Positions 2,816-20,900 of a DNA stretch of 64,000 bases are shown piece after piece. This stretch comes from Patescibacteria group bacterium (GTDB lineage: Bacteria; Patescibacteriota; Dojkabacteria; J137). A model generated the notes under the pieces. The model made no database searches. It saw only the letters and a list, made by a program, of their open reading frames with translations, and was not told the origin of the DNA. Positions within the stretch are counted from its first letter, which is position 1, and each line of letters begins with the position of its first letter. The stretch lies in contig CAUJCN010000001.1 in assembly GCA_963169855.1 (NCBI GenBank), forward strand, positions 81,828-145,827, written 5' to 3'. The position numbers and the translations under genes are program-made.

Positions 2816-2822
2816 TAAATAA

Positions 2823-3185
2823 TTAAGTGATCGGAAAGATTTCTTTCTCAATCGATACTCGTTGTTCAACAATCATCTCCATTACCTCTATAACTCTTAC
2901 TCCTTTGGTTTCCGCATACTTTGAAATCTTTAGAAATAGAAGAGGGTAGTAATCTTTTAACATATCTAACTTGATCATTTCAGGATCTCTTCCCTTTGCT
3001 AAGTAAGCTATCCCAGAAAATTTTGTTATTAAGGTATAGTCCGCATTATCCAGTTCTTGCTGAGTACAATAAGGTCTCATAGCCGAATAGATATTCCCAT
3101 CATTCTCGAATTTTCTATTTGGATCGTTATCCACATGTGCTCCTCTCATCATGTGTTCGTGTGTAATTCCTGCTCTTGATTCCAT
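2823..3185 (-). CDS. Hypothetical protein (N-terminal 'HEHMMRGAHVD' vaguely resembling the metal-binding C-terminal motif of M15 peptidases)
   Basis: Intact 120-aa ORF within the minus-strand locus. The motif match is weak. Confidence 0.35.
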   Translation of the reverse strand: MESRAGITHEHMMRGAHVDNDPNRKFENDGNIYSAMRPYCTQQELDNADYTLITKFSGIAYLAKGRDPEMIKLDMLKDYYPLLFLKISKYAETKGVRVIEVMEMIVEQRVSIEKEIFPIT

Positions 3186-3191
3186 AATATT

Positions 3192-5158: not shown

Positions 5159-8100
5159 TTATCGTCCAAGAGAAATCCAGTTAAACTCAACAGGAACTTC
5201 TAAAGCGGCATCTAGAATAATATCGAATGAAGTCTCTGTAATATTTCCAACATAGTAATCAACTCTTCGTCCAATCGGAGATGCTGTAACTACAGGTACA
5301 GTATTGAATGGAGTAGAGAATGTTACAGTCACAAATGTTAATCCGGTTTCAATTGTCGCTACACCTGCAGTATCTTCTGAAACATTTAATTTTCCAAGAA
5401 CTCTAACATTTCCAGAAGCAATCAAGTTTCCTACAGACAGATTACTCAAATCTATCGAAGCTGATCCACCCTGTAATAAAGAAACTGTTCCTTCAAGTGA
5501 AGCTAATCGTGTTTCAACATCAACTAATCGTGCCTCGTGAGTCTGGAATATTGTTAGTGAAGATTGAATGTTATTAATTGTTTGTTGTATTGAAACATTT
5601 GTATTTTGTAAATCTAGTATTGTCGATCTAATTCCTTGAAGATCTGTTGGAACAGCACTCAATGTATTTAAGCTTGCTTCAACAGCATCAACTCTACCTT
5701 CATTTTCGTTAACTTGAACTTCAACATTTTGTAATCGTCCTTCCTGAGTTTGAACAGCATCGGTCAAGATTGCAGACATTAATTCATAGTTAACTCCTTC
5801 AATTCTTCCATCTCTTGAGAATGCTAATCGTGGATCTACTACATTTACTTCTTCCGCAATAAATCCTAAGCTTCTTGAACCATCACTATTCTTTGTAAAT
5901 TGAACTGGTCTTAATCCCATTACTGTATCTAATCCATTGTTTAAATCAGAAATATTACTCTTATATCTTTCAGAAGAAACATTACAAACTCCCGCCTGAA
6001 CAACAATTACTCCTGAGGCATCTGTACAAACGTAACTTGTAGAAGCACCTCCGTTTGTAAGTTGACTTACATCCAATTCTCCATTTGCATTCAAAGACAT
6101 TCTAGCAACAAGGTTTGTAGTGAAATCGATACCGTTATTTACAGTTGTTCCAAGTGTGTAGTTACCACCTAAACCATCTGTCTGATTTCCATCTAACATC
6201 CAGAATGTAAATTCAGAGTCTGTCCAGTTTGCTGCTCCTCCAGCTCCTCCTGATAACAACACATCGCCGATGTTACCTGCGTTACCATTTGCTCTAAGCT
6301 CTCTTTCAAAGAACACATCTCCATTCCAAGTAACATAGAAAGCTGTGCTTCTGGTTAGATCATCTTCTCCGTTTCCAATAATAAATATTTGTTCATTGTC
6401 TGTAATCGCCTCAGTATAAGTTTGAGAAGCATTAGCACCATTTCTAATTGCGTAACTACCCATGATGGTCTGTACATACGTATCACTAACAAAACTACTT
6501 AAAGTTGTGTCCGTACCAGATCCGGTGATGTTACCAATACCGAATACTGTTGCTCCTGGTCCAGTACCTACATTCTGTAATCCCCAAACTGTGTTACCCA
6601 TGCCCGTCACTATATTTTGGCTACCCCACGCTGTAGAAAGAGTAGCAGATGGCGCAACTACATTTTCATCCCCGAATACAGTAGAATTTACACCAGAAGC
6701 GACATTTGACTCTCCCCATGTAGTTGAATTTTGTCCATCAGCAACATTTCCTAAACCAAATGCTGTTGCTTGTGAAGCGTTTGCCAAAGTGTTTGCTCCA
6801 AAAGCTGTTCCGTTTTCAAAAACAGCACCTGGATCAACATTTGTTTGATCTCCCCATGCCATACTATTCAGCCCTCTTGTTTGTGTTAGGTTACCAAATG
6901 CAGTATTATTTGAGCCAATTGCTTGAGCACCATTACCGAATGCTGTTGAATTTGTTCCTTGAGCCACTGTTTGGAAACCAAATGCAGTAGATTGTTCTGC
7001 CATAGATTGTGTTCCTCTTCCAAATGCTAATGAATTATCTCCACTTGCTGAAGTTTGATATCCGAAAGAAGTAGCTTGATCTGCTTCAGCTCTAGTGTCA
7101 AATCCAAATGCTGTTGCATTATCTACATTAGCTGTAAAGAATCCAGCAAGAGTACTTGTTCCCCATGCTGTTGATGCAAATGATTGAGAACCCACAGTAG
7201 TGAATCTACCAAATGCTGTAGAAGTATCTCCCAATGCCTCAGAAGTAAATCCAAATGCTGTTGAGTTTGTTCCTTGGGCCACTGAGTTTTCACCCCATGC
7301 TGTTGATTGGTCACCTTGCGATTGTGTTAGTAGACCAAATGCAGTAGAGTTTATTCCGTAAGCCTGTGATTGATTTCCAAATGCAGTTGCTTGATTTGCC
7401 TCCGCTTGAGTTTGATTTCCAAATGCCAAAGCGTTTGCAACATTCATAGTCATTACCCCAGCAGAAGTATCTGTACCAAAAGCCGTAGATGCTAATGAAT
7501 TTACTCCTACATTTGAAATTCTACCAAATGCTGTTGCATACTCTCCAAGAGCCTGTGTTGTAAATCCAAATGCTGTTGAGCCTATTCCTTGTGCCAGTGT
7601 ATCATCTCCAAATGCAGTCGAATTATCATTTAAAGCTTGGGTAGAAAATCCAAAGGCTGTTGAATTAAGTCCCTGTGCTGACGTTTGGTTTCCAAATGCT
7701 GTTGCCTGATCATCTTGTGCTTGAGTTTGGTTTCCAAATGCAAGTGCATTCTCTACACCCGGTGCCGAAGTTCCTGCTTCAGTAGCTGTACCAAATGCAG
7801 TTGAATTAGTTGAACCAAATCCAACTATCGAATTTTGTCCAAAAGCTGTTCCATTATCACCCAATGCTTGTGTCTGTGTTCCAAATGCTGTTGCTGAAAT
7901 TCCACTAGAAAGCGTGTCTTCTCCCCATGATGTTGATTGGTCTCCGTTAGCCACTGTTCCAAAACCGAATGCAATTGAATTTGTTGCTTGAGCCTGAGTT
8001 TGAGTTCCAAATGAAGTAGCTCCTGGACCTGAAGCAACGGTTGTATTTCCCCAAGCTGTGGCATTTATATCTTGAGCAAAGGAACCTGTACCCCAAGCAG

Positions 8101-11100
8101 TTGAATTCTGTCCTGTCGCTTCGTTTTGTTGACCCCAAGACATTGAACCGGTGCCAGAAGCAGTTGTATCTAGACCAAATGCCGTTGAATAATCTCCAAC
8201 ATTTGCATCACCCCACTGAAATCCGTTTGCAGTACCAGCTCTAAATGCGGATCTTCCAGGTGCCCAATACATTCTAGTTGTGGAACTGAATACTGCTGGG
8301 ACAGGATCTCCACTTAGATTACCTTCAAAAAGAACGTTTGTTGGATCTCCGTTAGAGATTATATGGAGTTTCTCTTGAGGATCTGCAACACCAATTCCAA
8401 AGTTTCCAATTCCTGACCAGCCAATGCTGTTTCCTGCAAGTGGAACTTCTGTATCAAATAGTAAACTTGCGTTTGTAGCTTCTGGGCTACCCACAGCTCC
8501 ACCTAATCTTATTCTGTCCGCAACTGGGTCTACTTGCAAACCATTGTCTGCTAATGCAGAGATTGTGCTGCCTGTTATGTCTATACCATCTCCACCTACT
8601 AGACTTCCTCCTCCAAAACAAGAGAACCACGCCCCGTTGTTTTCTGAACACTGAAATGTGTTTGAAAGAGTATCAAAATACATGGACCCTGCACCAAAAG
8701 GTGAAACTGCTGGTGCAAATCCACCGTACAAGGTCATCTTTGCGTCCCAGCCTACCGAGAATGCATTATTTCTTGCAAAGTCACTCGTTCCATTACCTAT
8801 TATAAATGCCTGATCGGATTGATCAAAGGCAAGTGAGTTACCTGAAACTGTATTAAAACGACCAATTGTGGTCTGAGCAAATCCTTGTGATTCAGTACTT
8901 TCTCCAAATGCAACGGCTCTCTCTCCCGATGCAGTAGCTCCATCACCCATTGCAATAGATACAGTTCCACCAGCAGTTACTTGCGAACCCATTGCGATAG
9001 AAGAGAAGCCATTTGCTGTAGCTCCGTTACCAAAGGCTGTTGCAAAGTTTGCATTTGCTTGCACAACATTACCATACGCAAATGAACTATCTCCCATTGC
9101 CTGTGAATTGTTACCTCCAACAAAAGAAGCAGTACCAGATGAAATATTTTGCAAACCGAATGCTACTGACATTGTTCCTGATGCTTGCGCATTTTGTCCA
9201 AATGCAAAAGCTTCTCTATCAGATGCTGTTGATGTAAATCCACCTGCAAATGAATTCTGACCAGATGCGATAGTTCCTTCACCTAAAGCTATAGCTCCAT
9301 CACCTTGTGCTGAAGTCCCTACTCCTAGAGAGGTTGCGTATGATCCAAATGCACTAGTTGTATTACCAAAAGAAGTAGATCCAATTCCTGTTGCATTATT
9401 ATTGTTTCCAAATGCAGTTGCATAGTCTGCAGATACATCGTTGGAGAAGCCCCAAACTCCAGCCGAGCTTGCATTAAAATTAATATTATTCATATTTCCA
9501 GCACCAAAGTTTGTAGAACCCTGAATGTTGTTTCCTGAACCTCCTACTAGCGAATAAAATGCTGGAACAGTATTACTAGATCCCGATACAAGGGAAGCCT
9601 GACCTGTAACTTGATTAGCTTGTCCAAAAACTGCAGAATCGTCTGCACCGAAAATTTGATGACTTTGTCCACCAGCTACTATTCTTGCTCCTGCTGCCAT
9701 TTGATTAAATCCAAAAATGGCGCCATCATTCACTCCAATATTATTGTTATTAGATCCACCTAGAATAGTATTTACCCCAAATGGCATTAAAGTATTAGAA
9801 GATCCAAATACAATTGAATTCTGTCCCCCATTAGTATTCGTATTTCCAGTTGTTATAGAATCTGTACCAGTAATTGAATTACCTTGACCAATTCCTAAAG
9901 ACCTGTTTGAGCCTGTCATTGTGTTACCTTGACCTGAAAGTATAGAGTTAACAGATGTTTGACTTTGGTTTAAATTACCACCGACTAAAGTGCTGTCGCT
10001 ACCCATATCAATATTGTTCGATGAACCGTAAACTATAGAAGAGATACTTCCTGTTATATTGTCTGTTCCTGCAGCCACAGAGAATGGTCCGTTGGCTTGT
10101 GTATTATTTCCAAAAGACGTTGCACCGAATGATGTTGCCTGCGTATTTTGACCAAATGCTAATGAGTTATTTCCAGAAGCAGTATTACCTTGTCCAAATG
10201 AGGTTGAGTATTCTCCTTGTGCAGTAGTATTTTGACCAAATGCAGTTGCTCCTGTACCTGAAGAAATATTATTGTTTCCGAAAGCAGTACCATAAGAATT
10301 AACAACCTCATTACTAAAGCCCCATGTCGCAGCGTTTTCAGATCCCATCATTATTTGGTTTTGTTGGCCGGCTGCAAAATGTTGCAATCCGCTCACCTGA
10401 TTCATCATTCCACCAACAAGACTAAAGTTGGAGAAGTTTTGATTGGCTTGACCACCTGTAATCGACCCTTGATTTTGGACTTGATTTCCTTGTCCAAAAA
10501 CTGCGACATCGTTCGAAAAGTTAACTTGATTAAATTGTCCTCCAACAACCACTCTTTGACCACTTACGGTTTGTGTAACTCCAAAAACTGCTGAGTTTTC
10601 TGCATCTACATTATTGTTTCCCTGGCCCCCAACTATAGAATTGTTGGTGGTTGGTACAGTTGTGTTGTTTTGACCAAAAACAATCCCCCTTTGGCCGGTA
10701 CTTGTATTAGCTTCTCCTATTGTAAATGAAGTGGCACCACTTACTGTGTTACCAACTCCTGCTACTATTGCTGCAGATGCTCCATTAAGGTTATTGCTTT
10801 GCCCAAACAGTGCTGAGTTAGAAGAGGCTCCTATTGCAACATTTGTATTACCTCCTGCAATTGTATTTTCACTAGACATGTCTACTGCACTACTTTGACC
10901 AAACGCTATTGAATTTGTTCCAAAAGCAAAAGTTCCATTTCCAGCAGCAATCGAATTCATACCATTTGCTTGTGTATTCTGGCCAAATGCAGTAGCACCT
11001 TGATTAGTTGCTTGAGTATTAAAGCCGAATGCCGCAGAGTTGATTCCACTAGCTGTCGTATTAACTCCAAAAGCTGAAGCACCCGCAGCAGTCGCTGAAG

Positions 11101-14100
11101 TGCTCTGGCCAAAAGCAGAAGAATTTGCTCCAGAAGCTGTAGTATCTAATCCAAAAGCTGCTGAGTTATCTCCAACATTGAAGTTGTCCCACTGACCCAT
11201 TGTAGCGGTTCCAGCTCTAAATGCTCCTCTACCAGGAGCCCAGTACATTCTAGTTGTAGAAGAGAATACTGTAGGAACAGCCATTCCATTTAAAGTACCT
11301 TCAAATAATACGTTACTAGGATCTCCCGCGCTCATCACATGTAATTTTTCTTGTGGTGCTGCAACTCCAATTCCAAAATTTCCCTGACCTGACCACCCGA
11401 TGCTGGATCCTGCCAAAGGTACTTCTGTATTAAATAGTAATGATGCATTTGTAGCCTCCGGAGATCCTACTGCGCCTCCTAGTCTAACTCTATCGGTGGC
11501 TGCATCTACTTGTAAACCATTATCAGCTAAAACATTTAATATTGGATTTGTAAGAGTACCTGTGTCACTGAGACCATCTCCAGCTGTTATCGAAATTATT
11601 CCTGCAGATCCTGTAGATCCAATTACATGCCAATTAGCACCATCAGAAATTAAAGTTACAGCATTCATATCATCCAAAGCATATGCTCCGGAAAGACCAT
11701 CTATTGTTTCTAAGCCCATAGGATTCACTCCCGAAGTAGATCCAGATTCATTTTTTATTGTATAGATTCGTCCTGCTAACCCGCCTGCTGATGGTAAATT
11801 CGCGCTTACTGCTGGACCTGTCAACACTACTGTTTGATTTAGCTCATCTAAGTTAATGCTTCCACCAGAAGAGTCTTCGTAGTTTACAGAGAAACTTCCA
11901 TTTGTACTCAAAGTTGAATGTGGAGTAGTGTTATTAAATCCTACACCCAATCTATTGTTAAGAGTATCTACAGATATTACTGTTGCAGTATCATCCTCTT
12001 TTCTAACTTGGAAAGCATCTGTTCGATTTACGCTATTTGAAACAAATATTGGTCTTGAATTTCCAACTGTTGTTACTCCAATCTGATAATCAGTAACCCC
12101 AATTCCTGGATCAGAGAACATTAATGCAATTGGATCGATTACTCCAGTTACTGTTAAATCTCCAGTTACTTGCAATCCCTTTGTACCAGTTAAACTTCCA
12201 CTATCAAAGGTTGGTAAGAACCCATTATTCGTAATTGTTGTATTGTGTAGTAGAGTACCACCCCATTCGATAAAGTCTCCAGAGAAACTCAAACCATTTT
12301 GAATCTGAGCATCTATTATTGGATCAACTCCAGTTCCAGAATTTACTAAACCTAACCCTGCTGTAACTGAATTAACTCCACCAGCTCCAAAACAATCAAA
12401 ATATGCTGCACCGTTTTCAGAACACTGGAAACCTCCTAATGCAGAGTTGAAGTACATTCTCCCTTCTCCTAGAACAGATAATGCTGGGTCTAACGTAACA
12501 CCCATCATAGAAAGACCTGAGTTACCAGTCAATCCAGTTGTACCTTGATCAATGCTAAGCAACGCTGTAGGGGCAGTAGAAAGTATTCCAACTCTTCCAT
12601 CTCCCATAACTGTCACCAACGGAGTTGGAATTCCAAATAAATCGTTCTCTATTTGGAAGACTTCGTCACTTGCACTAAGATTTTGCTTTGTTGCGAAATA
12701 AAATGCCTGTTCTACTCCTTGTCCAATGTTTCTATCAGAAAGAAATGCCATCCCACCAAAATTACCTGCAGTATTTGTTCCAAAGTTTGTTGTGTGTATA
12801 GTTGCTGAACCCGGCGATGCAAACCCTTGATTTAAAGAAGTATAATTTGCACCTGCTCCCAAAGTTCCTGTTGTTGATGTGATATTTAGACTTCCAGGGC
12901 CAAGTTCTAAGGAAGCCCATCTATTAGTTAGTGTTCCTAAATCAAATGTATTATCTACCTCAGGATCGAATCCTGTTGCAGTTATTCTTGCAATACTTAC
13001 AGCATTCCTAATAAATGTTTGATCAAAATTATCTAAAGTACCTAAAACACCGCTTGTACCAAATGAATTTCCATCCTGACAGAAAAAATCACCTGTAGGA
13101 TCACACGGAAGATTAGCTAAACTTGAGTTTACAGGATTACCACCTGCATCAAATCCAAGTAAGTTAGAAATCACCCCAACTGGAACTCCCACATTTGAAG
13201 AAACGCCGTTAACATTAGATGTAAATCCACCAGCAAGATTCAGGGAGAATACATTACTGTTTATTATAGTAGCAGTGTCCGATACACCATTAACTGTTGA
13301 AGTCATTGTGTTACCTAATGAGTCGAGAACATTTGTCGTTGCTCCAGATAGAAATGTACTCGCGTCCTTACTTAATAAGTTTCCTGCCGCATCAGTATAA
13401 AGAATATTAAGTACAGCCGGTGCATCATCTCTTGTATTTGGATAGCTACTCATTAAAATATTTCCATTGCCGAAAATTGTGAACCTATCAACACCACCAT
13501 TGTTTGCTGTAAAAATAGAAGTACCTATTGCAGTCTCGTTCCTTACTAACAATCCATTAGCACCTACGCCAGGTGTTCCGTTGTGGAATGTAGCAGTATA
13601 CCCTGGTGTGATTGGACCACCGATCTGCCAGAAAATTCCTACAGGATGTTGACCAACTCCACCTTGATCAGTAATACTACCTGATGCATTCGAAAGTAAA
13701 GTTGCGGGATTGTTGCTACCTATTCCAACATTTCCTCCAGCCATAACTCTCAATCTTTCTAGACCATTTGTTTCCAAAACCAAATCGTTGTTATCATTTG
13801 TTCCTAACGTACCCGTTGTACCAAAAAGGTTACCATCCTGACAGAAGAATGAACTAGTAGCAACGCAAGGAAGAGTAGAAAGATCAACAGTGTTGCTGGT
13901 TACACCATTAACAACACTCTCTAGATTTGAACCTACAAGATTTAAAACATTTGTATTTATTATGTCATCGAAACTTACAACACCATTCACTGTGCTTGTT
14001 GCAACATTCCCTGCTGTTGTGAATACATTAGTAGTATTTCCAGTTAAAATTGAAGCAATTGTTTCATTAACTGCTACTCCACCTGCATCAAAACCCAGAA

Positions 14101-15757
14101 CATTAACAATAGTTCCTCCTGCAATTGGTTGATTATCACTAACTCCGTTAACATCTGTCGTGAAGCCTGTTGCAAGATCCAAGTTAAAGTTAACTGAGTT
14201 AATAATATTTGCTGTATCTGAAATTCCGTTTACAGTTGAAGTCATTACATTACCTAGTGAGTCTAAAACATTAGTAGTTGCTCCACTTAGTACAGTAGCA
14301 ACTGACTGATTCGCTGGATTACCTCCTGCGTCATAACCTAGAAGATTAACAATTGTTCCTGCAGGAGTTGCTACAGTATCTGCCACGCCATTCACTGTTG
14401 AAGTGATTCCTCCAGCTTGAGTCCAAGTTAATGTATTAGTTGTATTTGCTGCCAAAATGCTACCAATTGTTTGATTTACACCATTTCCACCAGCATCGAA
14501 TCCAAACACATCAGTGATTGTTCCTGCTGGTATTGCCTGTGAAGATGCTATTCCATTTACTGTTGAAGTAAATCCTGTTGCTAAATCTACAGTTAAAACA
14601 TTTGAATTTATTATGTCGTCAAAACTTACAACACCATTTACTGTGCTTGTTGCAACATTTCCTGCTGTTGTAAAAACATTAGTAGTTGCTCCAGTTAAAA
14701 TTGAAGAAACTGTTTGATATGCTGGATTACCCAATGTATCGAAACCTAGTAGTTCAGTCAAAGTTCCTGCAGCTAAAGCTTCATTAGCAGCAACGCCATT
14801 TACTGTTGATGTAAATCCTGTAGTTCTATCAAGATTAAAAAGGTTTGTTAAGGGTAGAGCAGAGGTGTCAGTACAAGCCCAACTTACTCCGTTAAACATG
14901 TATACCTGATCTAAGGCACAGGCAGTTAGGCCATATGTGACTGTGTTTCCAGCTGTTGCAACTGAAATCGGACCAGTTGAAGCAAGGGTTATTGAAGGAC
15001 CAGTTTCACCATTAACATCTGTAATTCCTGCGCCTACAGCTGCTGGTAAACAAACAAATGCTGTTCCGTTCCAAGAAAGTCTTTCTGTTGGTAGACAGGT
15101 AGGAGCATTTACAGAAACTGTCCCTGTAGTTGTAATTGGGCCTCCAGTCAGACCGTTTCCAGTATTTATAAGTGTAACTCCTGTAGGTAAAGATACCGAG
15201 TTTCCGTTAGAAATCGATAGAATATTCCCAGCCAAACCTAATGTTTGGCTATCATTATCAACTCCACTCCCAGATCCTACTAAATCAGGTAAACAAACAA
15301 ATGCTGTTCCTGTCCATGATAACTTTTCATTGAAAGTACAGGCTGGAGAATCCACAGAAAATTGATTTGTTGTTAATTCTAGACCTTCACCTGATGTATA
15401 CGTATTGGATCCTCCTGTTCCTTCTGTGGAACATTCCCAAGTATTAGTAACTCCACTCCACCTTAATATTTCGTTAGTAGAACATACTTTGTTAAAACTA
15501 ACTGTATAACCGTTATTAACCTGATTAACTGTAATTAAATCTCCTCCTTGAACAGGTGATGAATTTCCGCCTGGATTTACTGTGGTATTACCAGTTGAAA
15601 ATGCTCCCCATCCTAAGAGAAGTATAAGGATAATAATTAAGACAAGGGTTACAACATACCAATTTCGTAGGAGTTTAAAGCGGTCGAGAGATACAAGTTC
15701 ATAAACACTGAACTTCTGCTTAGTAGGTTTTGTTACAGAATCATCTGAATGGTCCAT
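5159..15757 (-). CDS. Giant (3532 aa) type-II membrane-anchored surface fibre protein. It has Cys-pair modules, about 213-aa tandem modules, two roughly 1-kaa mega-repeats carrying YadA-head-like 14-residue 'NSTAFG' repeats, and a C-terminal phage tail-fibre intramolecular chaperone (peptidase S74-like) domain followed by a coiled coil and a terminal β domain.
   Basis: Single intact ORF. N-terminal 'WYVVTLVLIIILILLLGWGAF' TM anchor. Repeated 'xSTAFGxxTxAxGxx' 14-mers. C-terminal 'YKSNISDLNNGLDTVMGLRPVQF...LGFIAEEVNVVDPRLA...GVNYELMSAIL' matches the endosialidase chaperone (S74) signature, and a heptad-rich coiled coil follows. Confidence 0.85.
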   Translation of the reverse strand: MDHSDDSVTKPTKQKFSVYELVSLDRFKLLRNWYVVTLVLIIILILLLGWGAFSTGNTTVNPGGNSSPVQGGDLITVNQVNNGYTVSFNKVCSTNEILRWSGVTNTWECSTEGTGGSNTYTSGEGLELTTNQFSVDSPACTFNEKLSWTGTAFVCLPDLVGSGSGVDNDSQTLGLAGNILSISNGNSVSLPTGVTLINTGNGLTGGPITTTGTVSVNAPTCLPTERLSWNGTAFVCLPAAVGAGITDVNGETGPSITLASTGPISVATAGNTVTYGLTACALDQVYMFNGVSWACTDTSALPLTNLFNLDRTTGFTSTVNGVAANEALAAGTLTELLGFDTLGNPAYQTVSSILTGATTNVFTTAGNVATSTVNGVVSFDDIINSNVLTVDLATGFTSTVNGIASSQAIPAGTITDVFGFDAGGNGVNQTIGSILAANTTNTLTWTQAGGITSTVNGVADTVATPAGTIVNLLGYDAGGNPANQSVATVLSGATTNVLDSLGNVMTSTVNGISDTANIINSVNFNLDLATGFTTDVNGVSDNQPIAGGTIVNVLGFDAGGVAVNETIASILTGNTTNVFTTAGNVATSTVNGVVSFDDIINTNVLNLVGSNLESVVNGVTSNTVDLSTLPCVATSSFFCQDGNLFGTTGTLGTNDNNDLVLETNGLERLRVMAGGNVGIGSNNPATLLSNASGSITDQGGVGQHPVGIFWQIGGPITPGYTATFHNGTPGVGANGLLVRNETAIGTSIFTANNGGVDRFTIFGNGNILMSSYPNTRDDAPAVLNILYTDAAGNLLSKDASTFLSGATTNVLDSLGNTMTSTVNGVSDTATIINSNVFSLNLAGGFTSNVNGVSSNVGVPVGVISNLLGFDAGGNPVNSSLANLPCDPTGDFFCQDGNSFGTSGVLGTLDNFDQTFIRNAVSIARITATGFDPEVDNTFDLGTLTNRWASLELGPGSLNITSTTGTLGAGANYTSLNQGFASPGSATIHTTNFGTNTAGNFGGMAFLSDRNIGQGVEQAFYFATKQNLSASDEVFQIENDLFGIPTPLVTVMGDGRVGILSTAPTALLSIDQGTTGLTGNSGLSMMGVTLDPALSVLGEGRMYFNSALGGFQCSENGAAYFDCFGAGGVNSVTAGLGLVNSGTGVDPIIDAQIQNGLSFSGDFIEWGGTLLHNTTITNNGFLPTFDSGSLTGTKGLQVTGDLTVTGVIDPIALMFSDPGIGVTDYQIGVTTVGNSRPIFVSNSVNRTDAFQVRKEDDTATVISVDTLNNRLGVGFNNTTPHSTLSTNGSFSVNYEDSSGGSINLDELNQTVVLTGPAVSANLPSAGGLAGRIYTIKNESGSTSGVNPMGLETIDGLSGAYALDDMNAVTLISDGANWHVIGSTGSAGIISITAGDGLSDTGTLTNPILNVLADNGLQVDAATDRVRLGGAVGSPEATNASLLFNTEVPLAGSSIGWSGQGNFGIGVAAPQEKLHVMSAGDPSNVLFEGTLNGMAVPTVFSSTTRMYWAPGRGAFRAGTATMGQWDNFNVGDNSAAFGLDTTASGANSSAFGQSTSATAAGASAFGVNTTASGINSAAFGFNTQATNQGATAFGQNTQANGMNSIAAGNGTFAFGTNSIAFGQSSAVDMSSENTIAGGNTNVAIGASSNSALFGQSNNLNGASAAIVAGVGNTVSGATSFTIGEANTSTGQRGIVFGQNNTTVPTTNNSIVGGQGNNNVDAENSAVFGVTQTVSGQRVVVGGQFNQVNFSNDVAVFGQGNQVQNQGSITGGQANQNFSNFSLVGGMMNQVSGLQHFAAGQQNQIMMGSENAATWGFSNEVVNSYGTAFGNNNISSGTGATAFGQNTTAQGEYSTSFGQGNTASGNNSLAFGQNTQATSFGATSFGNNTQANGPFSVAAGTDNITGSISSIVYGSSNNIDMGSDSTLVGGNLNQSQTSVNSILSGQGNTMTGSNRSLGIGQGNSITGTDSITTGNTNTNGGQNSIVFGSSNTLMPFGVNTILGGSNNNNIGVNDGAIFGFNQMAAGARIVAGGQSHQIFGADDSAVFGQANQVTGQASLVSGSSNTVPAFYSLVGGSGNNIQGSTNFGAGNMNNINFNASSAGVWGFSNDVSADYATAFGNNNNATGIGSTSFGNTTSAFGSYATSLGVGTSAQGDGAIALGEGTIASGQNSFAGGFTSTASDREAFAFGQNAQASGTMSVAFGLQNISSGTASFVGGNNSQAMGDSSFAYGNVVQANANFATAFGNGATANGFSSIAMGSQVTAGGTVSIAMGDGATASGERAVAFGESTESQGFAQTTIGRFNTVSGNSLAFDQSDQAFIIGNGTSDFARNNAFSVGWDAKMTLYGGFAPAVSPFGAGSMYFDTLSNTFQCSENNGAWFSCFGGGSLVGGDGIDITGSTISALADNGLQVDPVADRIRLGGAVGSPEATNASLLFDTEVPLAGNSIGWSGIGNFGIGVADPQEKLHIISNGDPTNVLFEGNLSGDPVPAVFSSTTRMYWAPGRSAFRAGTANGFQWGDANVGDYSTAFGLDTTASGTGSMSWGQQNEATGQNSTAWGTGSFAQDINATAWGNTTVASGPGATSFGTQTQAQATNSIAFGFGTVANGDQSTSWGEDTLSSGISATAFGTQTQALGDNGTAFGQNSIVGFGSTNSTAFGTATEAGTSAPGVENALAFGNQTQAQDDQATAFGNQTSAQGLNSTAFGFSTQALNDNSTAFGDDTLAQGIGSTAFGFTTQALGEYATAFGRISNVGVNSLASTAFGTDTSAGVMTMNVANALAFGNQTQAEANQATAFGNQSQAYGINSTAFGLLTQSQGDQSTAWGENSVAQGTNSTAFGFTSEALGDTSTAFGRFTTVGSQSFASTAWGTSTLAGFFTANVDNATAFGFDTRAEADQATSFGYQTSASGDNSLAFGRGTQSMAEQSTAFGFQTVAQGTNSTAFGNGAQAIGSNNTAFGNLTQTRGLNSMAWGDQTNVDPGAVFENGTAFGANTLANASQATAFGLGNVADGQNSTTWGESNVASGVNSTVFGDENVVAPSATLSTAWGSQNIVTGMGNTVWGLQNVGTGPGATVFGIGNITGSGTDTTLSSFVSDTYVQTIMGSYAIRNGANASQTYTEAITDNEQIFIIGNGEDDLTRSTAFYVTWNGDVFFERELRANGNAGNIGDVLLSGGAGGAANWTDSEFTFWMLDGNQTDGLGGNYTLGTTVNNGIDFTTNLVARMSLNANGELDVSQLTNGGASTSYVCTDASGVIVVQAGVCNVSSERYKSNISDLNNGLDTVMGLRPVQFTKNSDGSRSLGFIAEEVNVVDPRLAFSRDGRIEGVNYELMSAILTDAVQTQEGRLQNVEVQVNENEGRVDAVEASLNTLSAVPTDLQGIRSTILDLQNTNVSIQQTINNIQSSLTIFQTHEARLVDVETRLASLEGTVSLLQGGSASIDLSNLSVGNLIASGNVRVLGKLNVSEDTAGVATIETGLTFVTVTFSTPFNTVPVVTASPIGRRVDYYVGNITETSFDIILDAALEVPVEFNWISLGR

Positions 15758-15911
15758 TCAACCAAAGTAAAACTAGCAATAGTGCAATTATTATATTTAG
15801 CAATATGATCGTAAATTTCCAGCCTTTTGATTCTTTCTTTTCAACATCAATTTGGACTTTGTCCGATGTTTTTTTGTCCGAATCCTTTTCTACAAGTGTA
15901 ATTTCCTGCAC
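15741..15911 (-). CDS. Small single-TM peptide (56 aa, GTG start), paralogue of the peptides upstream of the other two giant genes. It overlaps the giant-gene start.
   Basis: Translation '(M)QEITLVEKDSDKKTSDKVQIDVEKKESKGWKFTIILLNIIIALLLVLLWLNGPFR*' read from the minus strand. The C-terminal hydrophobic helix plus 'LNG' parallels P1/P2, which end in 'IING*'/'LING*'. The TGA stop lies 14 nt inside the 3532-aa ORF. No in-frame ATG is present, so the start is uncertain. Confidence 0.4.
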   Translation of the reverse strand: MQEITLVEKDSDKKTSDKVQIDVEKKESKGWKFTIILLNIIIALLLVLLWLNGPFR

Positions 15912-16398: not shown

Positions 16399-16442
16399 TT
16401 GGGTTTATTAACTAAGTTCAGTTTACCAACAAATTCCTTAGT

Positions 16443-17123: not shown

Positions 17124-17165
17124 GTCGGTAGATTATATTACACCAATCCCCATTTACGCCATGAA

Positions 17166-17197: not shown

Positions 17198-17216
17198 AAC
17201 ATTTTTATTCAACAAA

Positions 17217-17992: not shown

Positions 17993-20900
17993 CTATAAAG
18001 CTATCCAGTTAAATAAAATATCCGATGTTGATACTGGTTGTATTACAATATCAAAACCATTTTGATTTACATTTTCTATTCCATAGTATACAGCATTTAT
18101 TCCAACAGGTGTAATAGTTACTGATGGAATTTTTGTTAATGGAGTAGAGAAGTTTACACGAATTGAATTGTTGCCTCCCGCAATAGTAGCATTTCCACTT
18201 AGTGCCACCGGAATAGATTGAATCAGGTTTTCTAAATCGGAAATCCTTTGGTTTATTGCGGTTATATCAAATGAATTTGTTGCGAGTGAATCAATATCAT
18301 TTTTTATATTTGTTAGTGATGTATTCAAATCAGATGCCATAGTTTGTAACTCAGAAACATCAGTTCCGTCTAATTGTGTTTTTAGTTGATCGATCTCAGC
18401 TTGAATTCTAATATTATCTTCATTTAATTCTTGAATTGCTTTAACCAAGTAAGGGGTAAATCCGTTTACTTTAATTTGAAGATATCCGTCAGCTCCTACT
18501 TTAACTAAATCAGGTACAACCGATTGAACTTCTTGAGCAATAAATCCTAACTTCAATTCGTTCGAAGGATCGTTGTTCATATAGTAATTTCGCACCTGCA
18601 ATTGCGATATTGTGTCTAAAGCCGAAGTAGAGTAGTCAGAAATAGTATTTTTCAATCTCGAGTCCGAAGTACATCCAAATGAACCAAAAGCACCATCTGG
18701 TGCCACGGTACAAGTACCCGAACTATTTTCAAAAGTAGCTACTGTGGATAAAGCAGGGTCTAGGAAATCTCCAACATGTAATTGACTTGTAGGCGACACA
18801 TTATGTATACCAACGTTCCCATTTATTCCGTTAACAAACACATGTACAGTATTATTTGTACCCAAAGTTAATGGATATGTAGCCATGGTGTTTACATTAA
18901 ACGACTCAGTTCCTCCAAGCGATCCGTTTAAAGTAGAGTTTGCTTGAATAAAACCAATTCCTGCATTGTTATTTGAGAACATCATCGATGAGGCCGCGTT
19001 TAGTCCTGAATTGTTGTTTCTAAATTCTACAAACCCTTGCGCATCTACATCTTGCTCAACTACAAACATATAGTTTGGTCCTGAAGTTCCTATTCCTACA
19101 TTTCCATTATTTGCTATTCGCATTCTTTCTTGTCCATTTGTGAAGAATACTGTAGAAAACGCAGCAGAACCAAGTGTTAAGCTGCCTGCAGAATCGATAG
19201 TTATGTCGTTATTAGTAGTGATCAGCGATGCGTAATCTCGTGCGTTTAAAAACAAGTTTCCTGAAAGTGTGTTTACTGAAAGATCTCCGTTAGAATTAAG
19301 TTCGTTATTTATTGTGCCCGTAAAGTCTAACATGCTACGGCCAACGTCTGTCCACAAATCAAAGCCAGCCGATGTGGCATTGTCGTGAATATTTAGAGCG
19401 ACTACAGGTCCACCAGTTACAGTTTGAATTCTCACGGCTCCTGAATCTGCTAAAATTGTTCTTCCAACACCTGGTCCTCCAAAATCGTATGAATCATCCA
19501 AAGTTCCACCGCCAATTCCTAACCATCCATTCGTTGAAAAATCCTGTGTCTTCACATACAAATGTTCTCTATTTGTTACACCATCAATTCTAAAAAACAA
19601 ACTTCCGCTATTTGCCAAATGAACACCCTCTGGGTCTCCAATTCCAACTAGCTGATCTATGGTATTGGCACCTGTTCCAGATAACCTGAGTGTTCCTGGT
19701 CCAGATGTATTTGTAACATTCATTATTGAAGAACCTGCACTAGATCCTATTACAAATGTATTGACACCTTGTTGTCTGAATATCGTACCAGTATCGTTAG
19801 AAAGCAATATCTCATCGGTTACTCCTTGGTATGTAAGGTTAGCAAAGTTTGTATTAGGCATATCTAGAAATCTTATTCCACCACCGTTTGGTGAAGTAAT
19901 TAATTCAAAACCCGAGCCATTAGTATTGTACCCTTGAATAATGTTTTGATTACTCACAATATTTTGAGTTGACACAAGTAGAGCTTCATTTACACCATTA
20001 ATTTCTACAGCTCCAGAATCAACAGTTATTATTCTACCTGCACCAGGTCCACCAAAATCGTATGCATCATCTAAAGTTCCTCCTGCTCCAGCACCGAGAG
20101 CCACCCACCCATTAACACTTGCATCTGTTGTTTTTACGTATAGTTGTTGACTGCCTCCAACTCCATCCATTCGAAAGAATACACTTCCGCTATTCGCAAG
20201 GATGCCTCCTTCTGGATCTCCCGTACCAATTAACTGATCTACAAAAGCAGCACCTCCTGTAGTTCCTAATCTTAAAATCGTAGGATAAAATGGCCCATTA
20301 CTATTAATTGTTAGAACAGGATCGTTCGCCAAGCCAGCCGTTGACTGTATTATTGTACTATTGCCAGTCATTCTAAAAACGTTATTAGCCTGATTTGTTA
20401 TAGAGAAGTTATCAAAAGAACCATCGTATACGGTTCGAGCGACGTTAGCTCCAAAACTATCAGAGAACCATAGACCTCCGCCGTTTACGTAGGTTTGCAA
20501 AGCAAATCCGGATCCATTTGGGTTTGAAGCTGTAAAAATGTCTTGATTACTAGCATTGTTTTGCGTTGTTGCGTGTATAGCATTTGATGTTGCATTAAGC
20601 TCAACAACTCCCGAATCTACATCAATAATTCTCCCTGCCCCTGCGCCTCCAAAATCGTATGCATCATCCAGAGTTCCTCCAGATCCTCCTGAACCCAACG
20701 CTACCCAACCGGTATTGAAGCCATTATTTGTAGTTTTTACATACAGTTGTTCGTTCGCCCCACCATCAGTTCGCATGTAAATACTTCCTTGGTAACCAAA
20801 TAGAACATTTTCTGGTGTACCAGCACCAGAATAGATCTCAGTTGTACCACCATTATTATTGAAGTTCATAAAGGAATTTTGAGTTTGACCAGCATTTGTA

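What the first reader, a model, noticed from the sequence alone, without database searches (positions are those of the whole stretch)
6367..10777. YadA-head-like 14-residue 'NSTAFG' β-roll repeats inside a protein that trimerises via a phage chaperone
The 3532-aa protein contains two long blocks of 14-residue repeats ('NSTAFG FSTQALND NSTAFG DDTLAQGIG STAFG FTTQALGEY ATAFG ...'). They match the Hep_Hag/YadA-head left-handed β-roll periodicity of trimeric autotransporter adhesins. No TAA β-barrel anchor is present. The protein instead has an N-terminal TM helix and the phage-type C-terminal chaperone. This is a chimeric trimeric-adhesin design.
Basis: partly seen in the sequence, partly recalled or inferred. 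Interest (0 to 1): 0.6.

Follow-up and report, generated by a model that had tools for sequence, protein, structure and literature searches.

The report
Giant membrane-anchored YadA-head fibre, CPR bacterium
A tiny uncultured (Patescibacteria/Dojkabacteria-like) bacterium encodes a 3532-residue surface fibre. It combines the sticky beta-roll "heads" of Gram-negative trimeric adhesins with the self-cleaving folding chaperone and lectin-like tip of phage tail fibres, and it is anchored by an N-terminal membrane helix instead of an outer-membrane barrel. The mix is interesting, but it is one case of a domain combination that recurs in sequence databases.

Summary
ORF 5159..15757 (-) encodes 3532 aa with two long blocks of 14-residue repeats, head A (aa ~1501-2340) and head B (aa ~2493-3150). 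Lag-14 autocorrelation gives z = 22.8. Pfam YadA_head gives E = 4.8e-75. PDB sequence and fold matches go to the BpaC, BoaA, CbpF and YadA heads.

- No TAA anchor or stalk model matches.
- There is one N-terminal signal-anchor helix.
- A Peptidase_S74 chaperone lies at aa 3261-3309. Its Ser3261/Lys3266 dyad is invariant in a 42-sequence alignment, and its fold matches the MyRF ICA domain and, far more weakly, the GA-1 and endosialidase chaperones.

1. The chaperone is not terminal. A ~105-residue coiled coil and a 100-residue H-type-lectin-like knob follow it (model pLDDT 93, top fold hits Helix agglutinins and phage tailspike or pyocin fibre tips).
2. The design is not unique. 29 of 56 database homologues carry YadA_head plus S74 together, mostly from Bacteroidota-type proteins. 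S74-terminated surface fibres are already described in Bdellovibrio (MAT family).

The host genome is cellular. Two shorter paralogues lie next to the gene, and they lack the heads.

Best reading: a homotrimeric, Sec-exported, N-terminally anchored adhesive fibre. I rate it a new variant of a known kind, of moderate interest.

The parts
5159..15757 (-). Whole gene, 3532-aa giant surface fibre protein
   Evidence: ORF list and translation. The identical protein is on 5 metagenomic contigs; the two shown come from runs ERR10655381 and ERR10655384.
15593..15661 (-). N-terminal signal-anchor TM helix (aa ~33-55, WYVVTLVLIIILILLLGWGAF). A Lys/Arg-rich 32-residue cytoplasmic tail precedes it.
   Evidence: It is the only Kyte-Doolittle 19-mer window above 1.8 in the protein, with a maximum of 2.93. 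Both paralogues have the same feature.
11555..15592 (-). N-terminal stalk (aa 56-1401). It is rich in G/T/N/S, carries 'TSTVNGV' motifs at ~27/54-residue spacing, and holds seven closely spaced Cys pairs.
   Evidence: No Pfam family matches. There is no lag-14 signal. It is similar to the paralogues at 22-25% identity.
11258..11554 (-). Preface A (aa 1402-1500): 'ADNGLQVD...GNFGIGVAAPQEKLHV...TTRMYWAPGR', the N-terminal cap leading into head A
   Evidence: 76% identical to aa 2394-2492. Over the slightly wider span aa 1395-1510 against 2387-2502, DNA identity is 69.5% and protein identity 74%. The 'W.P...AF..G' cap motif is shared with the database homologues.
8738..11257 (-). Head A (aa ~1501-2340). 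Canonical 14-residue YadA-like units alternate with more degenerate G/N/Q-rich stretches. It ends in the cap 'QAFIIGNGTSDFARNNAFSV'.
   Evidence: YadA_head E = 2.7e-10, 1.6e-12 and 6.7e-18 in successive 400-aa segments. LbR_Ice_bind (the same left-handed beta-roll class) scores 44.9 bits in the segment aa 1741-2140. Unit HMM hits are and lag-14 windows.
8579..8737 (-). Inter-head linker (aa 2341-2393) with the Cys-loop motif 'MYFDTLSNTFQCSENNGAWFSCFG'
   Evidence: Duplicate of aa 1089-1123, 51% identical. Cys2370/Cys2380.
8282..8578 (-). Preface B (aa 2394-2492), the duplicate of preface A
6308..8281 (-). Head B (aa ~2493-3150). This is the most regular run of 14-residue 'xxTxAxGxNSTAFG' units. 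It ends in the cap 'EQIFIIGNGEDDLTRSTAFYV'.
   Evidence: YadA_head E = 3.4e-49 and 2.7e-27 in segments. The AF2 monomer shows strands at period 14 with pLDDT 85-96. Foldseek: BpaC head 7o23 E = 3.3e-11, then CbpF, BoaA, AtaA Ylhead and YadA. The 'F.IGNG....R.NA' cap is conserved in homologues.
5978..6307 (-). Pre-cleavage tip region (aa 3151-3260), including the Cys3244-Cys3258 loop just before the cleavage serine
   Evidence: The monomer model is poor here, pLDDT 30-50. That would be expected if the region is an interdigitated triple beta-helix, which is an inference. The Cys loop is conserved in p1304 and in the Patescibacterial homologues P0029 and P0050.
5789..5977 (-). Peptidase_S74 intramolecular chaperone / autoprotease core (aa 3261-3323), motif S3261-S-E-R-Y-K3266
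   Evidence: Pfam PF13884 E = 1.5e-8 for the whole protein and 1e-9 for the segment, against a cut-off of 22 bits. Ser and Lys are invariant in 42 sequences. Model pLDDT is 86-91. Fold hits: MyRF ICA 7dc3 at E 0.028; 3gud and 3gw6 only at E 1.4-4. Phage tail-fibre tblastn and PHROG hits cover only this region.
5471..5788 (-). Long helical (coiled-coil) segment, aa ~3324-3429
   Evidence: Continuous helices at residues 931-1036 of the model. Weak DUF7310 and SpiroCoCo coiled-coil hits.
5162..5461 (-). C-terminal H-type-lectin-like beta-sandwich knob (aa 3433-3532)
   Evidence: It is conserved in all three paralogues. Pfam H_lectin scores 22.9 bits against a cut-off of 24 for this copy, and 28 of 31 family members match. 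The best PDB profile hit is the H-lectin domain of discoidin-2, at a non-significant E of 0.064. The AF2 model has pLDDT 93.4. Foldseek top hits, all at E above 0.001, are Helix pomatia and H. aspersa agglutinins, SLL-2, phage tailspike C-termini and R-pyocin fibre feet. BFVD top hits are phage tail-fibre proteins, several named 'H-type lectin domain'.
17993..23275 (-). Paralogue, 1760 aa: TM anchor, fibre, S74 (aa 1537-1592), coiled coil, the same C-terminal knob. It has no YadA heads.
23473..27387 (-). Paralogue, 1304 aa: TM anchor, fibre, S74-like 'SSGKYK', coiled coil, the same knob. It has no YadA heads.
   Evidence: No Pfam family matches at E <= 0.01.
15741..15911 (-). Small 56-codon ORF encoding a single-TM protein. 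Its stop codon overlaps the giant gene's start codon, so it is a possible co-translated partner.
   Evidence: It is conserved in size and sequence in the sister MAG locus L045.

Best explanation
The gene encodes a giant homotrimeric cell-surface fibre (adhesin) of a Patescibacteria (Dojkabacteria-like) cell. Steps are marked as shown or inferred.

1. The protein is exported through Sec and stays tethered by an uncleaved N-terminal signal-anchor helix, N-in/C-out. The helix and the positive-inside charge distribution are shown. The topology is inferred. Nine closely spaced Cys pairs fit an extracellular location.
2. Outside the cell, three C-termini are brought into register by the trimer-forming C-terminal modules: the H-type-lectin-like knob, a ~105-residue coiled coil and the S74 intramolecular chaperone. 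The domains are shown. Their trimeric state is inferred from the solved homologues HPA, endoNF, T5 pb1, MyRF and Bd3182.
3. The S74 domain templates folding of the preceding tip and then, from C- to N-terminus, of head B, head A and the stalk. This step is inferred.
4. The conserved Ser3261/Lys3266 dyad then cuts the chain before Ser3261 and releases the 272-residue chaperone-coiled-coil-knob fragment. The dyad is shown. Cleavage is inferred.
5. The mature fibre carries two long left-handed parallel beta-roll heads of the YadA/BpaC type, roughly 60 and 46 turns of 14 residues. That would be about 50 nm in total at 4.8 Å per turn, which is my own estimate. A ~110-residue tip lies at the distal end.
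6. The fibre serves to bind a host cell or another surface.

The N-terminal anchor and the chaperone replace the C-terminal beta-barrel that exports, trimerises and anchors true trimeric autotransporters. That replacement suits a bacterium without an outer membrane.
For: **Repeats and head identity.** Lag-14 z = 22.8. YadA_head E = 4.8e-75. PDB sequence hits to TAA heads. The AF2 model of head B matches the BpaC head at Foldseek E = 3.3e-11, then CbpF, BoaA, AtaA and YadA.

**Chaperone.** PF13884 scores above its cut-off. S3261 and K3266 are invariant in 42 sequences. The fold matches the MyRF ICA domain at E 0.028, while GA-1 and endoNF chaperones match only above E = 1. Phage tail-fibre hits are restricted to this region.

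**Anchor and location.** There is a single N-terminal TM helix in this protein and in both paralogues, and there are 9 Cys pairs.

**No TAA anchor or stalk**.

**C-terminal knob.** It is an H-type-lectin-like fold.

**Cellular context.**
- MetRS, EF-G, TypA, Mfd, AddA-like helicase-nuclease, radical-SAM HemN-like enzyme, VIT1 and DUF1295 are encoded in the window.
- EF-G is 81% identical to several Ca. Dojkabacteria MAGs and 93% identical to MAG CAZYSE01.
- Synteny is conserved in that sister MAG.

**Recurrence of the cassette.** N-cap, YadA repeats, 'FIIGNG' cap, S74: 29 of 56 homologues carry it.

**Precedent.** Bdellovibrio MAT fibres end in S74, sit on the predator's surface, and Bd3182 self-cleaves at S782 (PMC10769870).

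**Fast evolution.** The N-terminal 717 aa are 65% identical to the sister MAG's orthologue, against 93% for EF-G. This fits a host-interaction protein.
Against: - Nothing here shows expression, surface localisation, trimerisation or cleavage.
- The structure tool predicts monomers. The long model has mean pLDDT 63, and the tip (aa 3151-3260) and several head stretches fall below 50.
- The S74 domain is not terminal. If it cleaves, a conserved lectin-like knob is thrown away, which is odd for a binding module. If it does not cleave, step 4 is wrong.
- About two thirds of the proteins carrying this knob have no S74-like motif upstream (98 of 146). The knob can therefore be part of a mature protein.
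- The ligand and the lifestyle of this organism are unknown. 'Adhesin' rests on analogy with TAAs, phage fibres and MAT proteins.
- That Patescibacteria lack an outer membrane is background knowledge. It was not tested on this genome.
Confidence: 0.65

Rival explanations
1. Same fibre, but the S74 domain acts only as a trimerisation and folding module and does not release the C-terminus, or the fragment stays bound. The coiled coil and H-type-lectin-like knob would then be the functional glycan-binding distal tip, as in R-type pyocin fibres and many phage tailspikes.
For: The knob is conserved in all three paralogues. It belongs to a large family (2371 clusters at E <= 1e-3, 408 at E <= 1e-10) that usually sits at or near the C-terminus of very large proteins. 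About two thirds of those proteins lack an upstream S74 motif. Its fold matches lectins and receptor-binding tips of pyocin and phage fibres.
Against: The Ser/Lys catalytic dyad is invariant in the three paralogues and in all 42 aligned homologues. In every S74 protein tested experimentally that I know of or read here, the dyad drives cleavage: endoNF, T5 pb1, MyRF and Bd3182 (for Bd3182, the rest from general knowledge).
Confidence: 0.25
2. It is a prophage or phage tail-fibre gene (a virion receptor-binding protein), not a cellular surface protein.
For: S74, the coiled coil and the H-lectin knob are typical modules of phage receptor-binding proteins. PHROG tail-fibre families hit the S74 region. 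tblastn hits go to tail-fibre and minor-tail proteins of Streptomyces, Arthrobacter and Synechococcus phages. BFVD hits for the knob are phage proteins.
Against: All three paralogues carry an N-terminal TM anchor. The flanking genes are cellular, namely VIT1, DUF1295, a GT-C-like protein and a HemN-like enzyme. The small neighbouring genes match no PHROG family. The same gene order occurs in a sister MAG. No close relative was found in IMG/VR. Phage hits cover only 12-20% of the query.
Confidence: 0.04
3. It is a genuine trimeric autotransporter adhesin (type Vc) whose anchor was missed.
For: There is very strong YadA_head similarity, and there are partial hits to the NCBIfam Ata, YadA and BimA models.
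Against: No YadA_anchor or YadA_stalk hit appears at E <= 0.1. The NCBIfam scores are tiny against their cut-offs: 78.7 against 2500 and 25.7 against 750. The C-terminus is confidently modelled as a lectin-like beta-sandwich. The membrane anchor is at the N-terminus. The organism is a Patescibacterium, a group known as background to lack an outer membrane.
Confidence: 0.01
4. The beta-roll blocks are not adhesive. The protein would be a structural envelope, spacer or S-layer-like component, or an ice-binding or mineral-binding surface.
For: LbR_Ice_bind (grass antifreeze beta roll) scores 44.9 bits, above its cut-off of 30, in the segment aa 1741-2140. Flat repetitive T/N/S-rich beta-roll faces are typical of ice-binding proteins, which is general knowledge. 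No ligand is known.
Against: The ice-binding hit reflects the shared left-handed 14-15-residue beta-roll class. The whole-protein score of 26.6 is below the cut-off, and the YadA_head signal is far stronger. The fast divergence between close genomes and the lectin and phage-tip modules point to recognition of a partner.
Confidence: 0.08

Closest known systems
Bdellovibrio bacteriovorus MAT (mosaic adhesive trimer) fibres, S74 subgroup, e.g. Bd3182 (Caulton et al. 2024, PMC10769870)
   Same: Both are chromosomally encoded surface fibres of a bacterium that lives on other bacteria. Both occur as several paralogues per genome. Both are long beta-rich trimeric shafts with a Peptidase_S74 chaperone/autoprotease carrying the S-x-x-x-x-K motif. 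The family shows mosaic swapping of tip domains, including lectin folds.
   Different: MATs are ~1000 aa, with a cleavable signal peptide and a conserved ~130-aa N-terminal surface-binding domain, in a diderm cell. This protein is 3532 aa, has an N-terminal TM anchor, carries two YadA-type beta-roll heads (not reported for MATs in the text I read), and continues beyond S74 with a coiled coil and a lectin-like knob. No sequence match to the PDB entries of MAT fibres appeared. Only a non-significant fold hit to Bd2133 appeared, rank 46 at E = 8.7.
Trimeric autotransporter adhesins (type Vc): YadA, BpaC, BoaA, AtaA, CbpF
   Same: The 14-residue left-handed parallel beta-roll head repeats are shared (Pfam YadA_head E = 4.8e-75, BpaC head Foldseek E = 3.3e-11). 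Both are modular repetitive fibres, and both are thought to fold from the C-terminus towards the N-terminus.
   Different: There is no C-terminal beta-barrel anchor, no neck or stalk modules, and no outer membrane. The polarity relative to the membrane is inverted, with the anchor at the N-terminus and the heads towards the C-terminus. Trimerisation is provided by an S74 chaperone.
Phage tail fibres and tailspikes with a C-terminal intramolecular chaperone: K1F endosialidase, T5 pb1, GA-1 gp12. Also eukaryotic MyRF.
   Same: The S74 domain with its Ser/Lys dyad is shared. MyRF ICA 7dc3 gives a real fold match at E 0.028; 3gud and 3gw6 match only at E above 1. Like MyRF, this protein is membrane-tethered and has sequence on both sides of the cleavage site.
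   Different: The protein is cellular and TM-anchored. The shaft is built from YadA-like beta-rolls rather than the triple beta-helix or beta-helix of phage spikes. In MyRF the anchor lies C-terminal of the cleavage site, whereas here it is N-terminal, so cleavage would shed the C-terminal piece.
Uncharacterised 'tail fiber domain-containing proteins' of Bacteroidota and others with YadA_head + Peptidase_S74, e.g. P0002, P0003, P0007, P0012 and P0075 (named from Dyadobacter sp.)
   Same: They share the same cassette in the same order: cap 'W.P...AF..G', 14-residue YadA-like repeats, 'F.IGNG....R.NA' cap, S-D-x-R-x-K S74, and a helical tail. Identity is 25-39% over up to 75% of the 633-aa C-terminal query.
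   Different: Those proteins are 450-1050 aa with a cleavable signal peptide, one head and only a short helical tail after S74. The window protein has two heads, a 1400-aa stalk, a TM anchor and an added coiled-coil and lectin-like knob.
H-type lectins (Helix pomatia agglutinin, discoidin II C-domain, SLL-2) and the lectin-like C-terminal knobs of R-type pyocin fibres and of Sf6, phi297 and Pam1 tailspikes
   Same: The 100-residue C-terminal domain shares their fold. Pfam H_lectin is matched by 28 of 31 family members. All of these homologues form trimers, which is general knowledge.
   Different: This copy scores just under the Pfam cut-off, 22.9 against 24 bits. Sugar-binding residues were not examined. 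Here the domain lies downstream of a self-cleaving chaperone.

Membership tests
Trimeric autotransporter adhesin (type Vc secretion) | C-terminal membrane anchor forming one third of a 12-stranded beta-barrel (Pfam YadA_anchor) | tested here: not met
   No YadA_anchor hit at E <= 0.1 in the whole protein or in 400-aa segments. The C-terminal 100 aa model as a lectin-like sandwich with pLDDT 93.
Trimeric autotransporter adhesin (type Vc secretion) | YadA-like head: left-handed parallel beta-roll of 14-residue repeats | tested here: met
   YadA_head E = 4.8e-75. Lag-14 z = 22.8. Sequence hits to 7o23, 1p9h and 3s6l. Foldseek 7o23 E = 3.3e-11.
Trimeric autotransporter adhesin (type Vc secretion) | Neck and coiled-coil stalk modules linking head to anchor (YadA_stalk and related) | tested here: not met
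   No YadA_stalk hit. The only long helices lie after the S74 domain.
Trimeric autotransporter adhesin (type Vc secretion) | Full-length match to curated TAA models (NCBIfam Ata, YadA, BimA) | tested here: not met
   78.7 bits against a cut-off of 2500, 25.7 against 750, and 11.6 against 800.
Trimeric autotransporter adhesin (type Vc secretion) | Diderm host with an outer membrane and the BAM machinery | tested here: inconclusive
   EF-G places the genome in Patescibacteria, Dojkabacteria-like. The absence of an outer membrane in that group is background knowledge. The window alone cannot exclude BamA elsewhere in the genome.
S74 / intramolecular-chaperone trimeric fibres (phage tail fibres and spikes; Bdellovibrio S74-MAT) | Peptidase_S74 (chaperone of endosialidase) domain | tested here: met
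   PF13884 scores 35.2 bits for the whole protein and 38.9 for the segment, against a cut-off of 22. Foldseek hit to MyRF ICA 7dc3 at E 0.028; 3gud and 3gw6 only at E 1.4-4.
S74 / intramolecular-chaperone trimeric fibres (phage tail fibres and spikes; Bdellovibrio S74-MAT) | Catalytic Ser-Lys dyad, S-(D)-x-x-x-K | tested here: met
   S3261 and K3266 ('SSERYK') are invariant across 42 sequences and across the three paralogues.
S74 / intramolecular-chaperone trimeric fibres (phage tail fibres and spikes; Bdellovibrio S74-MAT) | The chaperone is the C-terminal end of the precursor | tested here: not met
   About 210 residues follow the S74 core (aa 3324-3532): a coiled coil and an H-lectin-like knob. 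The same arrangement occurs in 4 of 7 sampled knob-bearing proteins.
S74 / intramolecular-chaperone trimeric fibres (phage tail fibres and spikes; Bdellovibrio S74-MAT) | Autoproteolytic release of the chaperone, and trimer formation that depends on it | not testable with these tools
   This needs expression of wild type against S3261A, or a multimer prediction. Only monomer prediction was available.
S74 / intramolecular-chaperone trimeric fibres (phage tail fibres and spikes; Bdellovibrio S74-MAT) | MAT-specific: conserved ~130-aa beta-rich N-terminal domain directly after a signal peptide | not tested
   No MAT N-terminal domain sequence was at hand. This protein has a TM signal-anchor rather than a classical signal peptide.
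S74 / intramolecular-chaperone trimeric fibres (phage tail fibres and spikes; Bdellovibrio S74-MAT) | For phage membership: location in a phage or prophage structural module | tested here: not met
   The neighbours are cellular genes or match no PHROG family. Synteny is conserved in a sister MAG. There is no close relative in IMG/VR.
H-type lectin domain (Pfam H_lectin) | Match to the family profile above its gathering score | tested here: inconclusive
   This copy scores 22.9 bits against a cut-off of 24 (E = 9.6e-5). 28 of 31 relatives match, with a best E of 3.5e-7. The best PDB profile hit is the discoidin-2 H-lectin domain at E = 0.064.
H-type lectin domain (Pfam H_lectin) | Six-stranded beta-sandwich fold of HPA and discoidin II | tested here: met
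   The model has pLDDT 93.4 and six strands. The top Foldseek hits are 2ce6, 4q56, 2ccv, 3wmp and 2vm9 at probability 0.99-1.00, with TM-scores around 0.5 and E-values of 0.007-0.15.
H-type lectin domain (Pfam H_lectin) | GalNAc/Gal-binding residues at the protomer interface | not tested
   Binding-site residues were not compared. A trimer model would be needed.

The most novel reading that the evidence does not exclude
The internal S74 domain could work as a built-in release switch rather than only as a folding aid. The fibre would first present a trimeric coiled-coil and lectin knob that captures a host glycan. S74 cleavage would then either shed this 272-residue trimeric lectin as a soluble or host-bound factor, or unmask a second binding site (the tip at aa 3151-3260 and the YadA-like heads). 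That would give an ultrasmall episymbiont a two-stage, phage-like attachment device anchored in its own membrane. The gain or loss of a whole ~1000-residue head module between close relatives (3532 aa against 2620 aa) would tune the reach of the fibre.
Probability: 0.12. Interest if true: 0.7.

Novelty: new variant of a known kind. Interest (0 to 1): 0.42.

Why it matters
YadA-type heads are textbook parts of type Vc autotransporters, where the C-terminal barrel does three jobs: export, trimerisation and anchoring. This protein, and the many smaller YadA_head + S74 proteins found with it, show a second natural way to display the same heads. Sec export with an N-terminal anchor or signal peptide handles export and tethering, and a phage-type intramolecular chaperone handles trimerisation. 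This route works without an outer membrane.

For Patescibacteria, host attachment is central and only type IV pili and a few adhesins have been studied. A tandem cluster of three S74-bearing fibres is therefore a concrete candidate attachment apparatus. One of the three is a fast-evolving giant of variable length.

The practical value is modest. The protein is a target for expression and cleavage assays, and an example for domain annotation, since such proteins are currently named 'tail fiber domain-containing protein' or 'hypothetical'.

Tried and rejected
- The whole-protein homologue search timed out. I used the C-terminal 633 aa instead.
- A word-index search with the C-terminal 113 aa alone found nothing. 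The exhaustive HMMER search with a three-paralogue profile then found 2371 clusters.
- The word-index searches never returned the query protein itself, and one search listed almost only hits shorter than about 500 aa. Their hit lists are therefore not a census.
A scan with the single protein found no relative. This tests close relatives only.
- Literature searches for YadA or Hep_Hag together with S74 or 'chaperone of endosialidase' found no paper describing the combined architecture. They returned only separate mentions in giant-virus, polinton-like-virus and prasinovirus papers.
- The prophage reading was considered and rejected: TM anchors, cellular neighbours, conserved synteny.
- The classical TAA reading was rejected: no anchor.
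- The assembly-artefact reading was rejected: no DNA-level tandem repeats, and the same protein is found in independent assemblies.
- The ice-binding reading was rejected: the hit reflects the shared fold class only.

Full report
**1. What is there**

The finding lies inside one ORF, window 5159..15757 on the minus strand, 3532 aa. Its coordinates 6367-10777 correspond to aa ~1661-3131. The quoted repeat string is present at aa ~2697-2745.

**2. Is the repeat real?**

- Residue identity at lag 14 in aa 1661-3131 is 0.249, against 0.093 ± 0.007 for shuffles (z = 22.8). Harmonics appear at lags 28, 42 and 7.
- In sliding windows the lag-14 signal is confined to aa ~1450-2300 and ~2450-3100. It is absent from the first 1400 residues and from the two neighbouring paralogues.
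- Units with exact spacing give the consensus x-x-T-x-A-x-G-x-N-S-T-A-F-G.
- At the DNA level there is no tandem array. TRF finds one weak 21-bp hit.
- The identical protein is present on five contigs of public assemblies, and the two shown come from runs ERR10655381 and ERR10655384.

The repeats are therefore old, diverged and maintained at the protein level. They are not an assembly artefact.

**3. Identity of the repeats**

- Pfam YadA_head matches at E = 4.8e-75 (247 bits, cut-off 25, 17 stretches).
- Scanning ten overlapping 400-aa segments places YadA_head only in aa 1393-3184. E-values run from 2.7e-10 to 3.4e-49.
- A phmmer search of aa 2394-3532 against PDB sequences finds only TAA heads: BpaC 7o23 (1.9e-15), CbpF 9u93, YadA 1p9h (2.2e-9), BoaA 3s6l, EibD and AtaA.
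- An AlphaFold2 monomer model of aa 2394-3532 has mean pLDDT 63, but 85-96 in the regular head stretches. It shows short strands every 14 residues.
- Its best Foldseek hits are BpaC head (E = 3.3e-11), CbpF, BoaA, AtaA Ylhead and YadA.
- Parts of head A are more degenerate, with G/N/Q-rich 7/14-residue repeats. They match the grass antifreeze beta-roll model at 44.9 bits in the segment aa 1741-2140. That model describes the same left-handed beta-roll class.

**4. Anatomy**

| Residues | Feature |
|---|---|
| 1-32 | Lys/Arg-rich N-terminal tail |
| ~33-55 | The only strongly hydrophobic segment, a signal-anchor helix |
| 56-1401 | Stalk with no Pfam match; 'TSTVNGV' motifs at ~27/54-residue spacing; Cys pairs |
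| 1402-1500 | Preface A |
| ~1501-2340 | Head A, ending 'QAFIIGNGTSDFARNNAFSV' |
| 2341-2393 | Linker with a Cys loop, duplicated from aa 1089-1123 |
| 2394-2492 | Preface B, 76% identical to preface A |
| ~2493-3150 | Head B, ending 'EQIFIIGNGEDDLTRSTAFYV' |
| 3151-3260 | Tip region, closed by Cys3244-Cys3258 |
| 3261-3309 | Peptidase_S74 |
| ~3324-3429 | Helices (coiled coil) |
| 3433-3532 | Beta domain (knob) |

The protein has 18 cysteines, all in nine close pairs. This fits an extracellular, disulfide-stapled protein.

**5. The chaperone**

- PF13884 scores 35.2 bits for the whole protein and 38.9 for the segment, against a cut-off of 22.
- In a 42-sequence alignment, Ser3261 and Lys3266 ('SSERYK', consensus S-D-x-R-x-K) are two of only six invariant columns. 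Both are also invariant in the three paralogues.
- The modelled domain has pLDDT 86-91. It matches the MyRF ICA domain 7dc3 at E 0.028. The GA-1 chaperone 3gud and the endosialidase chaperone 3gw6 appear only at E 1.4-4.
- tblastn against 50,697 phage records hits tail-fibre and minor-tail genes of Streptomyces, Arthrobacter and Synechococcus phages. The hits cover only the S74 region, 12-20% of the query. PHROG tail-fibre families behave the same way.

**6. What follows the chaperone**

All three paralogues share S74, then a coiled coil, then a conserved ~90-100-aa domain.

- An exhaustive HMMER search with that domain finds 2371 representative clusters at E <= 1e-3 and 408 at E <= 1e-10. The domain usually sits at or near the C-terminus of proteins of 1000-4800 aa.
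- 4 of 7 sampled full-length hits have Peptidase_S74 about 45-145 residues before the start of the domain.
- 48 of 146 hits have an S74-like motif within 450 aa upstream.
- 28 of 31 members match Pfam H_lectin. The window copy scores 22.9 bits, just under the cut-off of 24.
- The family profile's best PDB sequence hit is the H-lectin domain of discoidin-2, at E = 0.064, which is not significant on its own.
- A model built with that alignment has pLDDT 93.4.
- Its best PDB matches are Helix pomatia and H. aspersa agglutinins, SLL-2 and discoidin II, at E-values of 0.007-0.15 with TM-scores around 0.5. The C-terminal knobs of the phi297, Pam1 and Sf6 tailspikes and of R-type pyocin fibres also match.
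- In BFVD it matches phage tail-fibre proteins, several named 'H-type lectin domain'.

The C-terminal ~380 residues are thus an entire phage-receptor-binding-protein-like end piece: tip, S74, coiled coil and lectin-like knob.

**7. What is absent**

No YadA_anchor or YadA_stalk hit appears at E <= 0.1. The NCBIfam TAA models match only locally and far below their cut-offs. The protein is not a trimeric autotransporter.

**8. Context**

- The window is cellular. It encodes MetRS, EF-G, TypA/BipA, Mfd, an AddA-like helicase-nuclease, a HemN-like radical-SAM enzyme, a beta-CASP RNase, VIT1, DUF1295 and tRNA-Arg, at ~35% GC.
- EF-G is 81% identical to several Ca. Dojkabacteria (WS6) MAGs and 93% identical to MAG GCA_964650085.1. 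The organism is therefore a Patescibacterium.
- Upstream lie two paralogues of 1760 and 1304 aa. They have the same N-terminal TM anchor and the same S74, coiled-coil and knob end, but no YadA heads.
- Three small genes without family matches lie between the paralogues and the giant gene.
- The sister MAG has the same gene order.
- In the sister MAG, p1760 is 86% identical and p244 is 89% identical. The giant protein's first 717 aa are only 65% identical. Its orthologue there is 2620 aa long.
- The 912-residue length difference is close to the 992-residue spacing of the duplicated prefaces. I read this as gain or loss of one head module. That is an inference, because the sister sequence could not be fetched in full.

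**9. How common is the design?**

- The C-terminal 633 aa find 56 homologues. 29 of them carry PF13884 and PF05658 together, and none carries an anchor domain. The named ones come from Bacteroidetes, Bacteroidales, Flavobacterium, the Patescibacteria group and Ca. Campbellbacteria. A later search added one from Dyadobacter (P0075).
- Their sequences show the same ordered cassette: signal peptide, N-cap 'W.P...AF..G', 14-residue repeats, 'F.IGNG....R.NA' cap, S-D-x-R-x-K, and a short helical tail.
- I found no paper describing this combined architecture.
- The closest described system is the Bdellovibrio MAT fibre family. There, 13 of 21 surface fibres end in S74, and Bd3182 self-cleaves at S782 (PMC10769870).

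**10. Mechanism (best explanation, confidence ~0.65)**

1. Sec export with an uncleaved N-terminal anchor. The helix is shown; the topology is inferred.
2. The C-terminal knob, coiled coil and S74 bring three chains into register and template folding towards the N-terminus. This is inferred from solved homologues.
3. Ser3261/Lys3266 cut the chain and release the 272-residue C-terminal fragment. The dyad is shown; cleavage is inferred.
4. The mature fibre displays two YadA-type beta-roll heads and a distal tip for binding a host or a surface. This rests on analogy.

The main internal rival (~0.25) is that the knob is retained as the working lectin tip. The prophage, true-TAA and purely structural or ice-binding readings are unlikely, for the reasons given under rival explanations.

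**11. Verdict**

Two corrections apply: the chaperone is internal and a lectin-like knob follows it, and the chimera is one member of a recurrent architecture that has barely been studied. I rate it a new variant of a known kind, with interest about 0.4.

Noticed in passing
window 15741-15911 (-): A 56-codon ORF with a GTG start encodes a single-TM peptide ('...KGWKFTIILLNIIIALLLVLLWLNGPFR'). Its stop codon overlaps the ATG of the giant gene. The same 56-aa ORF sits in the same place in sister MAG locus L045 (9280-9450). It could be a translationally coupled membrane partner of the fibre.
   Followed up: partly
window 17993-23275 (-) and 23473-27387 (-): Two further giant paralogues of 1760 and 1304 aa have the same TM anchor and the same S74, coiled-coil and H-lectin-like end, but no YadA heads and no lag-14 periodicity. 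Together with the giant gene they form a tandem cluster of three S74 fibres.
   Followed up: partly
window 15967-17951 (-): ORFs 15967-16398, 16443-17123, 17217-17951: Three small genes lie between the fibre genes (143, 226 and 244 aa; two of them have a TM helix). They match no Pfam or PHROG family. They are syntenic in the sister MAG, but divergence is very uneven: p244 89%, p143 71%, p226 only 31% identity, with a different length for p226.
   Followed up: partly
locus L045 (MAG GCA_964650085.1, contig CAZYSE010000020.1), gene starting at 9434: The orthologue of the giant protein in a genome with 93% identical EF-G is 2620 aa instead of 3532 aa. It is only 65% identical over its first 717 aa. 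This suggests a length polymorphism of roughly one head module together with fast sequence evolution.
   Followed up: partly
window 5162-5461 (-) and proteins P0177-P0325: The C-terminal H-lectin-like knob defines a very large family (2371 clusters at 50% identity at E <= 1e-3). It is typically found at or near the C-terminus of 1000-4800-aa proteins. About one third of these have an S74 motif upstream. Most copies fall near or below the Pfam H_lectin threshold.
   Followed up: partly
window 1151-2815 (+) and 3192-4526 (-): A PMT_2-like (GT-C, protein mannosyltransferase-type) membrane protein lies immediately downstream of the fibre gene. Beside it is a 444-aa protein with a hydrophobic N-terminus and several weaker hydrophobic windows, and no family match. 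The fibre is extremely rich in Ser, Thr and Asn, and its repeat contains the N-S-T sequon, so glycosylation of the fibre is conceivable. This was not tested.
   Followed up: no
window 5159-15757 (-), aa 92-3258: All 18 cysteines of the giant protein occur as nine pairs spaced 8-17 residues apart. One pair (3244/3258) lies directly before the S74 cleavage serine, and it is also present in p1304 and in Patescibacterial homologues P0029 and P0050.
   Followed up: partly
(database behaviour): The word-index homologue search never returned the query protein itself, although that protein is in the underlying collection. In one search it listed almost only hits shorter than about 500 aa. Hit lists from that tool should therefore not be read as a census of giant proteins.
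   Followed up: no
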